Notes under the pieces: generated by a model
Databases searched by the model: none
What the model was told of the DNA's origin: nothing
Seen by the model: the letters and a program-made list of their open reading frames with translations, nothing else
Shown here: in pieces, positions 20,020 through 29,691 of the stretch
How the letters are laid out: the number at the start of each line of letters is the position of its first letter
Position numbering within the stretch: the first letter of the stretch is position 1
Source: the human T2T-CHM13v2.0 reference genome, Homo sapiens
Length of the DNA stretch: 64,000 nt
Direction of reading: 5' to 3'
Assembly: GCA_009914755.4 (NCBI GenBank)
Contig: CP086569.2
Span: forward strand, 34,752,001-34,816,000
Translations under genes and position numbers: made by a program

Positions 20020-20315
20020 TTTTTTTAGACAGAGTCTTGTCGTGTTGCACAGGGTGGAGTACAATGGCGCCATCTTTGCTCACTGCAACATCTGCCTCAA
20101 GGGTCCAAGCGATTGGCCTCCCTCAGCCTCCCAGGTAGCTGGGACTACACCACACTGGGACTACAGCAGCTGCCACCATGCCTAGCTAATTTTTTGGATT
20201 TTTAGTAGTGACAGCGTTTCACTGTATTGGCCAGGATGGTCTTGATCTCTTCACCTTGTGATCCCCTTGCCTTGGCCTCCAAATTTGCTGGGATTACAGG
20301 CCTGAGCCAAGATCC
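20020..20315 (-). mobile_element. Alu SINE copy (U9)
   Basis: Poly-T at 20020-20026. Confidence 0.9.
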
Positions 20316-22437
20316 ATATTTTTTAAATGAAAAAAAATTTCAAAGGTACTCTGCTTGGTACAATAATCAAATGTATAAACTGAGGAATAAAACATAACCA
20401 TGAAACCTACTTATAACTGCATATGGAAAATACAGAGGATAATTTTTTAAATAACATATTTTGAAAGCCTTAACTAGTAATTTGAAGAGTTGGCATTTGA
20501 AAGGCCAGTATGAATATACCTTCAAAGCAGCAACACAGGTTCCCCATGAGAAAAAGCAAACACAGGGAAAATAAAAACACAAAGGTTCAATCTCTTCTGA
20601 CCTTTGAAAGACACAGCACAGACAGTGGTCCTTAGGACGCAGAGCAGGAGACCCCTAATTCCGTCACCATGGCGATAGGGCATAAACATTGCTGGGTGAG
20701 GGCACAATCCACATTGAGAGGTCCAACTGCTGCCAGGAAGACAGGAGTGCTTTTACATAGACCGAAAGGTCATTGAAGGCTCAGAGTTTTGTTTCAAGAA
20801 CTGAATCCCAAGCCCACACGTTATTAGGCTGCGCTTCTTAAAACAAGTTATGAGATGGGAAAAAGGGCACCCACAAACATACGTATACATTATGTATATA
20901 ATAATATACAGTATCATATATAAAATATGTATAACCTATGTATAATATTGTTTTACATCCTGCATCTTATATTATATATATTGTATAAAATATAATAATT
21001 GATAATATATAAGTTTTATATTTATACAATATGACATATAGTATATATTATACTTTATGACATATATAATATATGTTATATATCATATATAGAATATATT
21101 ATACGGTTAATATACGTATTAAATATAAATTATACATTATATATATTATATAAAATATATCTGTTATATATAATACCCATTATGCATAATACATATATTA
21201 TGTCTATGTTATATATAGTATAAAACAACATATAATAATATATAATTGTATATATAAAATGCGACATATAATATATATTATATTTTAGGACATATGTAAT
21301 ATATATTATATATTATATATAATACGTTGTATGTATAATACCTATATTAAATATATATTATATGACTATGTTATTAATTACATGTCACATATGTTATATA
21401 TTATATATTTTACATAGAATATACCGGTTACATACAATATATACTATGTTACCTATAATGTATAATTGATTACATGTAAAATAAAGAATGCAATATATTA
21501 TGTATAATTTATAATATACAATATGTGGAATGTGAGATATATAACATATAATATATGATATATGATATACAGTATATGATATATAACATACAATATATGA
21601 TTCCTAATATATATGGTATACAATATATATTTTATGATATGTATTCTATATGTTTTATATTCTGTTATATATAACTATTTGAAATTATATATAACTGTAT
21701 AATATTTTATGTAAATATGTAATATAATATATATAACTATATAATATATTATATATAACTATATATTATGTTATATATACTTTTATAACATAATTTACAT
21801 AAAATATCATAATATAATATATATTATATTATTTCATATTACATAATATATATTACATATCACCCAATATAACTAACATACACAATATTATTATATAGAT
21901 TATATTATATTATATTAAATATCATATATATCATGTATCATATATTCTATAATATATATTACACATTATATAATATGTATGTTGTCTAATATGTGATATA
22001 TATAACTATATATATAATTATATTTTTATACATATAACTAGATAAACATGTAATTCTACATATTTTCATTTATAATATGTAGAATTATATAATCATATAT
22101 AATTATTTATATTCTATAAAAAATTTTATCATTATATAAATTATAATATATAAAAATTATAATATGTACTACAAATATATATATTATATATCATATATGA
22201 TATAGTACCTTTGTTATATATCATAATACATATAAATGTGTTTTATGTTATCTATAATTATATAATTTCATATATAAGATGTATAATATGTATCATATAT
22301 TATATATGTTATGTAATATATATAGTATATATAAGATGACACAGGATAAATATTATATACTATGACATATAAAATATATCAGGTTATATGTTACATATAA
22401 GGCATAGCACATAACATGTAATATATATCATATATAA
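20020..22437. repeat. Unit U9 (2418 bp): Alu gamma ('ctcaagggtccaagcgattggcctcc', 'ctacagcagc') + conserved A ('gacgcagagc')
   Basis: Delimited by Alu starts. AT-rich has 'tatataaaatatgtataacc', 'tatactttatgac'. Near-identical to U11. Confidence 0.85.
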
Positions 22438-22735
22438 TTTTTTTTTAGACAGAATCTTGTCCTGTTGCACAGGGTGGGGTACAATGGCGCCATCTTTGCT
22501 CACTGCAACTTCTGCCTCACGGGTCCAAGCGATTGTCCTCCCTCAGCCTCCCAGGTAGCTGGGACTACACCACACTGGGACTACAGCAGCTGCCACCATG
22601 CCTAGCTAATTTTTTGGATTTTTAGTAGTGACAGCGTTTCACTGTATTGGCCAGGATGGTCTTGATCTCTTCACCTTGTGATCCCCTTGCCTTGGCCTCC
22701 AAATTTGCTGGGATTACAGGCCTGAGCCAAGATCC
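22438..22735 (-). mobile_element. Alu SINE copy (U10)
   Basis: Poly-T at 22438-22446. Confidence 0.9.
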
Positions 22736-27273: not shown

Positions 27274-27569
27274 TTTTTTTTAGACAGAATCTTGTCCTGT
27301 TGCACAGGGTGGGGTACAATGGCGCCATCTTTGCTCACTGCAACTTCTGCCTCACGGGTCCAAGCGATTGTCCTCCCTCAGCCTCCCAGGTAGCTGGGAC
27401 TACACCACACTGGGACTACAGCAGCTGCCACCATGCCTAGCTAATTTTTTGGATTTTTAGTAGTGACAGCGTTTCACTGTATTGGCCAGGATGGTCTTGA
27501 TCTCTTCACCTTGTGATCCCCTTGCCTTGGCCTCCAAATTTGCGGGATTACAGGCCTGAGCCAAGATCC
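27274..27569 (-). mobile_element. Alu SINE copy (U12)
   Basis: Poly-T at 27274-27281. Confidence 0.9.
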
Positions 27570-29691
27570 ATATTTTTTAAATGAAAAAAAATTTCAAAGG
27601 TACTCTGCTTGGTACAATAATCAAATGTATAAACTGAGGAATAAAACATAACCATGAAACCTACTTATAACTGCATATGGAAAATACAGAGGATAATTTT
27701 TTAAATAACATATTTTGAAAGCCTTAACGAGTAATTTGAAGAGCTGGCATTTGAAAGGCCTGTATGAATATACCTTCAAAGCAGCAACACAGGTTCCCCA
27801 TGAGAAAAAGCAAACACAGGGAAAATAAAAACACAAAGGTTCAATCTCTTCTGACCTTTGAAAGACACAGCACAGACAGTGGTCCTTAGGACGAAGAGCA
27901 GGAGACCCCTAATTCCGTCACCATGGCGATAGGGCATAAACATTGCTGGGTGAGGGCACAATCCACATTGTGAGGTCCAACTGCTGCCAGGAAGACAGGA
28001 GTGCTTTTACATAGACCGAAAGGTCATTGAAGGCTCAGAGTTTTGTTTCAAGAACTGAATCCCAAGCCCACACGTTATTAGGCTGCGCTTCTTAAAACAA
28101 GTTATGAGATGGGAAAAAGGGCACCCACAAACATACGTATACATTATGTATATAATAATATACAGTATCATATATATAATATATATAACCTATGTATAAT
28201 ATTGTTTTACATCCTGCATCTTATGTTATATATATTGTATAAAATATAATAATTGATAATATATAAGTTTTATAATTATACAATATGACCTATAGAATAT
28301 ATTATAATTTATGACATATATAATATATGTTATATATCATATATAGAATATATTATACGGTTAATATACGTATTAAATATAAATTATACATTATATATAT
28401 TATATATAATATATCTGTTATATATAATACCCATTATGCATAATATATATATTATGTCTATATTATATATAGTATAAAACAACATATAATAATATATAAT
28501 TGTATATATAAAATGCGACATATAATATATATTATATTTATTAACATATGTAATATATATTATATATTATATATAATACGTTGTATGTATAATACCTATA
28601 TTACATATATATTATATGACTATGTTATTAATTACATGTCACATGTGTTATATATTATATATTTCACATAGAATATACCGGTTACATATAATATATACCA
28701 TGTTACCTATAATGTATAATTTATTACATGTAAAATAAAGAATGCAATATATTATGAATAATTTATAATATACAATACGTGGAATGTGATATATGTAACA
28801 TATAATATATGATATATGATATACAGTATATGATATATAACATACAATATATGATTCCTAATATATATGGTATACAATATATATTTTATGATATGTATTC
28901 TATATGTTTTATATTCTGTTATATATAACTATTTGAAATTATATATAACTGTATAATATTTTATGTAAATATGTAATATAATATATATAACTATATAATA
29001 TATTATATATAACTATATATTATGTTATATATACTTTTATAACATAATTTACATAAAATATCATAACATAATATATATTATATTATTTCATATTACATAA
29101 TATATATTACATATCACCCAATATAACTAACATACATAATATTATAATATAGATTATATTATGTTATATTAAATATCATATATATCTTGTATCATATATT
29201 CTATAATATATATTACACATTATATAATATGTATGTTGTCTATTATGTGATATATATAACTATATATATAATTATATTTTTATACATATAACTAGATAAA
29301 CATGTAATTCTACATATTTTCATTTATAATATGTAGAATTATATAATCATATATAATTATTTATATTCTATAAAAAATTTTATCATTATATAAATTATAA
29401 TATATAAAAATTATAATATGTACTACAAATATATATATTATATATCATATATGATATAGTACCTTTGTTATATATCATAATACATATAAATGTGTATTAT
29501 GTTATCTATAATTATATAATTTCATATATAAGATGTATAATATGTATCATATATTATATATGTTATGTAATATATATAGTATATATAAGATGACACAGGA
29601 TAAATATTATATACTATGACATATAAAATATATCAGGTTATATGTTACATATAAGGCATAGCACATAACATGTAATATATATCATATATAA
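27274..29691. repeat. Unit U12 (2418 bp): Alu alpha ('ctacagcagc') + conserved A
   Basis: Delimited by Alu starts. Confidence 0.85.

What the first reader, a model, noticed from the sequence alone, without database searches (positions are those of the whole stretch)
20020..29691. Dimeric higher-order periodicity (~4.84 kb) across units U9-U12
Seen: U9 and U11 share private variants in all three unit parts. In the Alu: 'ctcaagggtccaagcgattggcctcc'. In the conserved segment: 'aggacgcagagc'. In the AT-rich block: 'tatataaaatatgtataacc' and 'tatactttatgac'. U10 and U12 lack these. Instead U10 and U12 share their own Alu variants ('aacttctgcc' together with 'ctacagcagc' and the alpha subtype). The alternation P-Q-P-Q' indicates a two-unit block duplicated as a unit, i.e. 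an emerging higher-order repeat inside the macrosatellite.
Basis: seen in the sequence. Interest (0 to 1): 0.5.

Follow-up and report, generated by a model that had tools for sequence, protein, structure and literature searches.

The report
One duplicated unit, not a dimeric repeat
Inside an ordinary 2.4-kb human satellite array (the DYZ2/HSat1B type), two units lying two positions apart are near-copies of each other, but the units beside them are not, so this is the trace of one local slipped exchange and not an emerging two-unit higher-order repeat.

Summary
The window is a head-to-tail array of 26 complete 2,413-2,423-bp units plus two partial ones. Each unit has a diverged antisense Alu, a GC-richer segment and an AT-rich block. 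This matches published descriptions of human DYZ2/HSat1B.

U9 and U11 are mutual nearest relatives: 99.17% identical, against 98.0-98.2% to their neighbours. They share five alleles found in no other unit. U10 and U12 are not a pair. They are 97.89% identical, which is an ordinary value (rank 109 of 325 pairs), and they share no private allele. Their similar first 950 bp is a haplotype also carried by U2, U13, U17 and U19.

Across the window, similarity falls steadily with distance: 41.7, 49.7 and about 54-62 differences at offsets of 1, 2 and 3 or more units. Of 72 pair-private alleles, 52 link adjacent units. There is no two-unit periodicity.

The best reading is one exchange between copies misaligned by two units (4,836 bp). 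It left a 2.35-3.3-kb tract that is 99.33% identical (20093-23390 vs 24929-28224), and later exchanges blurred it. De novo DYZ2 insertions and deletions of 2,416-4,839 bp are already documented in pedigrees. This is ordinary and of low interest.

The parts
1..64000 (+). Tandem array of about 2,418-bp units: 26 complete units U1-U26 (682-63541) plus partial units at both ends. It fits the DYZ2/HSat1B type.
   Evidence: Unit starts come from BLAST of the U9 head. The MAFFT alignment has 2,423 columns and gives a 2,420-bp consensus. GC is 24.5%.
20020..22439 (+). U9, the 'P' copy 1
   Evidence: Differs from U11 at 20 columns (99.17% identical), and they are mutual nearest neighbours. Shares private alleles with U11 at columns 81, 97, 621, 1890 and 1970.
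20020..20309 (-). Alu-derived part of U9, antisense on the + strand. It is 5'-truncated by 12 nt and has a 15-bp internal insertion.
   Evidence: Local alignment to an AluY consensus recalled from memory covers positions 13-287 at 77.7% identity. Sub-threshold Rfam hits to the Alu-derived family mir-1268 lie on the minus strand in U9-U12.
20310..20883 (+). GC-richer non-Alu segment of U9 (the 'HSATI' part), ending in ACATACG at 20877-20883
   Evidence: Read directly from the sequence. The ACATACG junction motif is described for DYZ2 in 10.1101/2022.12.01.518658.
20884..22439 (+). AT-rich block of U9 (about 86% AT), with an internal imperfect 230-bp duplication
   Evidence: Composition profile and TRF period-230 rows.
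22440..24855 (+). U10, a mosaic unit. Its first 951 columns carry a haplotype shared with U12, U13, U17, U2 and U19. Its tail is closest to U3 and U25.
   Evidence: Head and tail distance lists and the informative-site matrix.
24856..27274 (+). U11, the 'P' copy 2
   Evidence: Same evidence as for U9.
27275..29693 (+). U12. It is not a copy of U10 (52 column differences, 97.89% identical). Its tail is closest to U15, U1 and U17.
20093..23390 (+). Low-divergence tract, copy A (U9 column 74 to U10 column 951). The 20093-22439 part is secure. The extension into U10 is only weakly supported.
   Evidence: Tract scan found 3,301 columns with 22 differences. Direct global alignment to copy B gives 99.33%.
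24929..28224 (+). Low-divergence tract, copy B (U11 column 74 to U12 column 951), 4,836 bp downstream of copy A

Best explanation
The window is a stretch of the human 2.4-kb composite satellite HSat1B (classically DYZ2, most probably Yq12). Units U9 and U11 descend from one unit through a single out-of-register exchange between sister chromatids, or within one chromatid, misaligned by exactly two units (4,836 bp).

The exchange was one of two kinds:
- An unequal crossover that added two units, with flanks since overwritten by further exchanges.
- A long non-crossover (gene-conversion) tract.

The surviving footprint is 2.35-3.3 kb and is now 0.67-0.83% diverged. It is one patch in a mosaic produced by repeated slipped exchanges at various offsets, mostly one unit. 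It has no function of its own and is not a periodic higher-order repeat.

Shown: the identity pattern, the tract limits and the absence of period-2 structure. Inferred: the type of exchange, the order of events and the genomic origin.
For: Family assignment:
- The consensus is 2,420 bp, unit lengths are 2,413-2,423 bp and GC is 24.5%.
- The unit has three parts: a 5'-truncated Alu 77.7% identical to AluY, a GC-richer segment ending in ACATACG, and a block of more than 85% AT.
- These match the descriptions in 10.1101/2022.12.01.518724 and 10.1101/2022.12.01.518658.
- The same sequence turns up at 98.4-99.6% identity as short stray contigs in 17 unrelated 'bacterial' assemblies. This is the contamination pattern reported for HSat1B.

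Shared ancestry of U9 and U11:
- They differ at 20 columns against an all-pair mean of 54.9.
- They share five pair-private alleles spread over columns 81-1970.
- These alleles are absent from all external copies that cover the sites, and the 26-mer carrying two of them is absent from the metagenome collection.

Single event, not a periodicity:
- U10-U12 are 97.89% identical with no private alleles.
- Mean difference rises monotonically with offset.
- 52 of 72 pair-private alleles sit at offset 1.
- Other tracts occur at offsets 1, 3, 4, 16-18 and 22.

Mechanism already observed directly:
- De novo DYZ2 structural variants of 2,416-4,839 bp, that is one or two whole units, arise about once per Y transmission.
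- 29% of Yq12 de novo SNVs look like interlocus gene conversion (PMC12240836).

Overwriting of the left flank:
- An offset-4 tract (U3:1188-U5:80 vs U7:1188-U9:80) ends at U9 column 80, within 6 columns of where the U9/U11 tract starts at column 74.
- Four of the 20 U9-U11 differences fall in columns 1-73.
Against: - A simple two-unit unequal crossover predicts that U10's tail equals U8's tail. It does not (37 differences in columns 952-2423), so an extra overwriting event must be assumed.
- Neither U10's nor U12's tail has a close donor in the window (25 or more differences).
- A pure conversion tract of 2.35 kb or more is long compared with the 542-bp median reported for Y palindromes.
- Extension of the tract into U10 and U12 rests on one site (column 147 G, private to U9-U12) plus compatibility.
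- The assignment to chromosome Y rather than to an acrocentric HSat1B array, or to another ape, was not tested against any reference genome.
Confidence: 0.8

Rival explanations
1. A genuine nascent dimeric higher-order repeat. A whole two-unit block [P Q] was duplicated as a unit (P-Q-P-Q') and is the seed of a 4.84-kb periodicity. The tail of one Q was later replaced.
For: - U9 and U11 are near-copies.
- The first 951 columns of U10 and U12 differ at only 6 sites, and the two units uniquely combine 71T with 147G.
- 147G is private to U9-U12.
- A two-unit unequal crossover does duplicate two units' worth of sequence.
Against: - U10-U12 overall are 97.89% identical, less than either is to its neighbours.
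- They share no private allele.
- The head haplotype is as close or closer in U13, U17, U2 and U19.
- The supposed period occurs only once, and there is no period-2 signal anywhere else in 26 units.
- The replaced Q tail has no donor in the window.
Confidence: 0.1
2. Assembly artefact. A satellite region was mis-assembled so that one unit appears twice.
For: Arrays that are 98% identical or more are hard to assemble. Nothing in the tool results points to this directly.
Against: - The two copies differ at 20 columns. Fourteen of these are alleles unique in the window (6 singleton alleles in U9 and 8 in U11). An erroneous duplication would give identical copies.
- The intervening U10 is a distinct unit.
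Confidence: 0.03
3. Chance or convergent similarity. U9 and U11 share variants by recurrent mutation or independent short conversions from a common third donor, with no direct copying between them.
For: - Yq12 has a very high rate of mutation and interlocus conversion.
- Three of the shared AT-block alleles (columns 904, 910, 1034) also occur in U24.
Against: - Five alleles spanning 1.9 kb are found only in these two units.
- They are absent from the external copies.
- Divergence is low along the whole unit, not in patches.
Confidence: 0.05

Closest known systems
Human satellite HSat1B / DYZ2 (Yq12 heterochromatin, with minor arrays on acrocentric short arms)
   Same: - Unit length of about 2.4 kb with a 2,420-bp consensus.
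- Three-part unit: 5'-truncated diverged AluY, GC-richer 'HSATI' segment, and a block of more than 85% AT.
- 24-25% GC.
- ACATACG at the HSATI/AT junction.
- About 98% identity between units.

   Different: Nothing found differs. Chromosome of origin and species were not verified against a reference genome.
De novo and polymorphic one- and two-unit DYZ2 insertions and deletions, and interlocus gene conversion in Yq12 (PMC12240836; 10.1101/2022.12.01.518724)
   Same: The offset of the copied tract (4,836 bp) equals two units. This matches the upper size (4,839 bp) of the de novo DYZ2 structural variants seen in a pedigree. The mosaic of tracts fits 'evolution by unequal exchange'.
   Different: Here only an old, eroded footprint is seen (0.67-0.83% diverged, 1.0-1.4 units long). 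It is not a fresh, clean two-unit duplication.
Alpha-satellite-type higher-order repeats (HORs)
   Same: Units of equal length in tandem. A non-adjacent unit is more similar than the adjacent one at one place.
   Different: - No set of distinct unit types recurs in fixed order.
- Only one unit recurs, and only once.
- Similarity decays monotonically with distance, whereas a HOR gives peaks at multiples of its period.

Membership tests
HSat1B / DYZ2 satellite | Tandem unit of about 2.4-2.5 kb (published consensus 2,413/2,420 bp) | tested here: met
   There are 26 units of 2,413-2,423 bp, and the majority consensus is 2,420 bp. The published lengths are quoted.
HSat1B / DYZ2 satellite | Composite unit: 5'-truncated AluY fragment about 20% diverged, plus a GC-richer HSATI segment, plus a region of more than 85% AT | tested here: met
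   The Alu part aligns to AluY positions 13-287 at 77.7% identity, using a consensus recalled from memory. The GC profile alternates between about 0.39 and about 0.14.
HSat1B / DYZ2 satellite | Overall GC of about 24% and ACATACG at the HSATI/AT-rich junction | tested here: met
   GC is 24.5%. ACATACG lies at 20877-20883.
HSat1B / DYZ2 satellite | Direct sequence identity to a reference DYZ2 consensus or to T2T-Y coordinates | not testable with these tools
   No human genome or Dfam library is available. Indirect support: 17 stray contigs in unrelated bacterial assemblies are 98.4-99.6% identical to the window consensus. This is the contamination signature reported for HSat1B.
Higher-order repeat (dimeric, 4.84 kb) | Units one period apart are more similar than adjacent units, for every unit type in the period | tested here: not met
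   U9-U11 are 99.17% identical, above the adjacent values of about 98.1%. U10-U12 are 97.89% identical, below the adjacent values.
Higher-order repeat (dimeric, 4.84 kb) | The period is repeated over several consecutive copies, giving peaks at multiples of the period | tested here: not met
   Mean differences by offset are 41.7 (1 unit), 49.7 (2), 53.8 (3), 54.8 (4), and 57.9-62.2 at offsets 5-13. All offset-2 pair-private alleles come from the single U9/U11 pair.

The most novel reading that the evidence does not exclude
The U9-U12 block is the first step of a lineage-specific 4.84-kb dimeric higher-order repeat within DYZ2/HSat1B. It would recur or be amplified outside this window or in related Y haplotypes, and it could serve as a structural marker for following array turnover.
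Probability: 0.06. Interest if true: 0.25.

Novelty: already known. Interest (0 to 1): 0.1.

Why it matters
It matters little. The window illustrates at base resolution how a DYZ2/HSat1B array turns over: mostly by one-unit slipped exchanges, with occasional two-unit and longer-range ones. This is already described from complete Y assemblies and pedigrees. The useful results are negative: there is no dimeric periodicity, and the similarity of U10 and U12 comes from a common haplotype. Private-variant tracts such as U9/U11 could serve as local markers when comparing Y haplotypes.

Tried and rejected
- TRF with periods up to 500 bp saw only the internal 230-bp duplication of the AT block, not the 2.4-kb unit.
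- A fuzzy-regex anchor gave imprecise unit starts, and an exact 30-mer anchor missed four units. I replaced both with BLAST of the U9 head.
- The k-mer offset histogram showed strong peaks at 26.6-33.9 kb (11-14 units). The unit matrix shows no excess similarity at those offsets. I suspect the peaks come from units that happen to share indel phase, but I did not test this.
- I tested whether the U10/U12 head similarity is specific. It is not, because U13, U17, U2 and U19 are equally close.
- I tested the simple two-unit crossover prediction that U8's tail equals U10's tail. It is not met.
- A metagenome scan for the U9/U11-specific 26-mer found nothing.
- Metagenome and bacterial-assembly contigs holding the repeat are too short or too uneven in quality to test periodicity in independent arrays. 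The longest held stretch is about 4 units. Some contigs place units about 91% identical to the consensus next to units about 99% identical.
- The Rfam scan gave only sub-threshold hits to the Alu-derived family mir-1268 and no SRP hit.
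Full report
**What the window is**

The 64-kb window is one uninterrupted head-to-tail array. This gives 26 complete units, U1 at 682 through U26 ending at 63541, plus a partial unit at each end.

Each unit has three parts:
- An Alu-derived segment, antisense on the + strand. It aligns to AluY positions 13-287 at 77.7% identity and carries a 15-bp internal insertion. The AluY consensus was recalled from memory. Sub-threshold minus-strand hits to the Alu-derived Rfam family mir-1268 agree with this.
- A GC-richer unique segment of about 575 bp, ending in ACATACG (20877-20883 in U9).
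- An AT-rich block of about 1.55 kb at about 86% AT.

Overall GC is 24.5%, and the majority consensus of the 26 units is 2,420 bp. These features match the published description of human DYZ2/HSat1B:
- A unit of about 2.4-2.5 kb made of an AluY fragment about 20% diverged and 5'-truncated, a region of more than 85% AT, and a GC-richer HSATI part.
- 24% GC, a 2,413/2,420-bp consensus, and ACATACG at the HSATI/AT junction.
- Units mostly more than 98% identical.

No human reference could be searched. However, an exact 44-mer from the unique segment occurs in 17 short contigs of unrelated 'bacterial' assemblies, which are 98.4-99.6% identical to the window consensus. It also occurs in 21 metagenome contigs. 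This is the contamination signature that the T2T-Y paper reports for HSat1B.

**Checking the observation**

I aligned the 26 units with MAFFT, giving 2,423 columns of which 366 are variable and 151 parsimony-informative.
- The Alu string and the conserved-segment string occur only in U9 and U11.
- The two AT-block strings occur in U9, U11 and also U24.
- 'aacttctgcc' occurs in nine units.
- 'ctacagcagc' occurs in all four of U9-U12, so it is not a marker specific to U10 and U12. Only the combination of these two strings is unique to U10 and U12.

| Pair | Column differences | Global identity |
|---|---|---|
| U9-U11 | 20 | 99.17% |
| U9-U10 | 45 | 98.18% |
| U10-U11 | 49 | 98.02% |
| U11-U12 | 47 | 98.06% |
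| U10-U12 | 52 | 97.89% |

(Differences, identities.)

- The mean over all 325 pairs is 54.9 differences. U9-U11 ranks 4th closest, and the two are mutual nearest neighbours.
- U10-U12 ranks 109th. U10's nearest relative is U3 (38 differences) and U12's is U17 (33).
- Alleles carried by exactly two units number 5 for U9/U11 (columns 81, 97, 621, 1890, 1970) and 0 for U10/U12.

The U10-U12 relationship, which a dimeric repeat requires, is absent.

**How far the copied tract extends**

I scanned the concatenated alignment at every unit offset for low-divergence runs. At offset 2 there is one independent tract. A second offset-2 hit, U4:1413-U5:1529, is a by-product of the U4-U7 one-unit expansion described below. 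The independent tract runs from U9 column 74 to U10 column 951 against U11 column 74 to U12 column 951. It covers 3,301 columns with 22 differences. In window coordinates this is 20093-23390 against 24929-28224, 99.33% identical by direct alignment.

The part inside U9 and U11 is secure. The extension into the first 951 columns of U10 and U12 is weak. The two units differ there at only 6 sites, but U10's head is just as close to U13 (4), U17 (5), U2 and U19 (6). The same tail-plus-head junction haplotype also recurs at U1/U2, U12/U13, U16/U17 and U18/U19. The only specific link is column 147 G, which is private to U9, U10, U11 and U12.

Beyond column 951, U10 and U12 differ at 46 of 1,472 columns, which is background level. 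To the left, U8 and U10 are unrelated (52 differences). Four of the 20 U9-U11 differences cluster in columns 1-73.

**No period-2 structure in the array**

- Mean differences by offset are 41.7 (1 unit), 49.7 (2), 53.8 (3) and 54.8 (4), and 57.9-62.2 at offsets 5-13. This is a monotonic decay with distance. Permutation z-scores are -6.5 at offset 1 and -2.5 at offset 2.
- Of 72 pair-private alleles, 52 link adjacent units. The 5 at offset 2 all come from U9/U11.
- The youngest events are one-unit slips: U4:1413-U7:1529 (three phase-shifted copies, 0.22% divergent; U5 and U6 differ at 3 sites), U19/U20 and U22/U23.
- Other multi-unit tracts occur at offsets 3, 4, 16, 17, 18 and 22.

The picture is a patchwork of overlapping exchange tracts, not a fixed higher-order period.

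**Mechanism**

The simplest account is a single exchange between copies misaligned by two units. A two-unit unequal sister-chromatid crossover predicts three things: that U9 equals U11, that the head of U10 equals the head of U12, and that the tail of U8 equals the tail of U10. The first holds, the second is compatible, and the third fails (37 differences).

There is circumstantial support for a later overwrite of the left flank. A separate tract, U3:1188-U5:80 against U7:1188-U9:80, ends at U9 column 80. That is within 6 columns of where the U9/U11 tract begins, and it would explain the cluster of differences in U9 columns 1-73.

The alternative is a long non-crossover conversion tract of 2.35 kb or more. 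That is long relative to the 542-bp median reported for Y palindromes. A single haplotype cannot separate the two.

Both processes are documented in this satellite:
- Pedigree data show de novo DYZ2 structural variants of 2,416-4,839 bp, each affecting whole unit(s), about once per Y transmission.
- The Yq12 SNV rate is 3.86e-7 per bp per generation, and 29% of those SNVs look like interlocus gene conversion (PMC12240836).
- Strand-seq shows sister-chromatid exchanges in Yq12.

With that SNV rate, 0.67% divergence implies an age on the order of 10^4 generations. This is an inference only, because conversion inflates divergence. At the reported structural-variant rate, several later events near any given unit would be expected over such a span. 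That fits the eroded flanks.

**Comparison with what is known, and novelty**

The repeat meets every testable defining feature of HSat1B/DYZ2. It fails both defining features of a dimeric HOR. Local and 'hyper-local' variation in satellite periodicity, and evolution by unequal exchange, are already described for these arrays. Two-unit events have been seen de novo. The finding is therefore a correct partial observation of an ordinary, already known process.

The U9/U11 private alleles were not found in any external copy covering those sites, nor in the metagenome collection. They are local derived markers rather than a widespread subtype.

**Limits**

Chromosome, species and assembly correctness could not be tested with these tools. 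External contigs were too short to examine periodicity in independent arrays.

Noticed in passing
window 5520-20019 (U3-U8) vs 51454-63541 (U22-U26): There is a larger-scale, roughly collinear resemblance. U5/U6 resemble U22/U23 (24-28 differences). U7:1188-U8:1739 resembles U25:1188-U26:1739 (0.57% divergent). U3 resembles U25 (21 differences). U8 resembles both U4 (23 differences) and U26 (24), but U4 and U26 differ at 45. A two-unit 'C-D' block thus recurs three times, at U3-U4, U7(tail)-U8 and U25-U26. This is as good an example of multi-unit copying as U9-U12, but at irregular offsets of 4, 18 and 22 units.
   Followed up: partly
window 9350-16717 (approx.; U4 col 1413 to U7 col 1529): This is the youngest event in the window: three phase-shifted, near-identical copies of one unit (0.22% divergent over 4,963 columns). 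U5 and U6 differ at only 3 sites. Its breakpoints lie inside the AT-rich block, not at unit boundaries.
   Followed up: partly
alignment columns ~950-1002 of every unit (e.g. window ~20968-21020 in U9): Eleven informative sites cluster at the start of the AT-rich block, and many low-divergence tracts end at columns 949-976. This is either a mutation or conversion hotspot, or a preferred exchange breakpoint.
   Followed up: no
window 56288-58707 (U24): U24 is a mosaic. Its head resembles U23 (columns 481-519 and 745). It carries the U9/U11 AT-block alleles at columns 904, 910 and 1034. It also has 11 singleton alleles.
   Followed up: no
L006 5897-6920 (NZ_HF570958.1, Nostocoides japonicum T1-X7, 5.16-Mb scaffold): A 1,024-bp piece of this human satellite (about 40% GC) sits between two 100-N gaps inside a scaffold of about 73% GC from an actinobacterial genome. 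It is a contaminant contig that was scaffolded into the chromosome. Sixteen other bacterial assemblies carry it as stray contigs of 617-2,497 bp.
   Followed up: partly
L025, L030, L033 (metagenome contigs): Some contigs join a unit about 99% identical to the window consensus to a neighbouring unit only about 91% identical. These may be a divergent (acrocentric?) HSat1B subtype or chimeric assemblies.
   Followed up: no
window 20975-21405 and the same place in other units: The AT-rich block contains an internal imperfect tandem duplication (period 230 bp, 1.9 copies, about 76% match). TRF detected it in only 8 of 26 units at the score threshold used.
   Followed up: no
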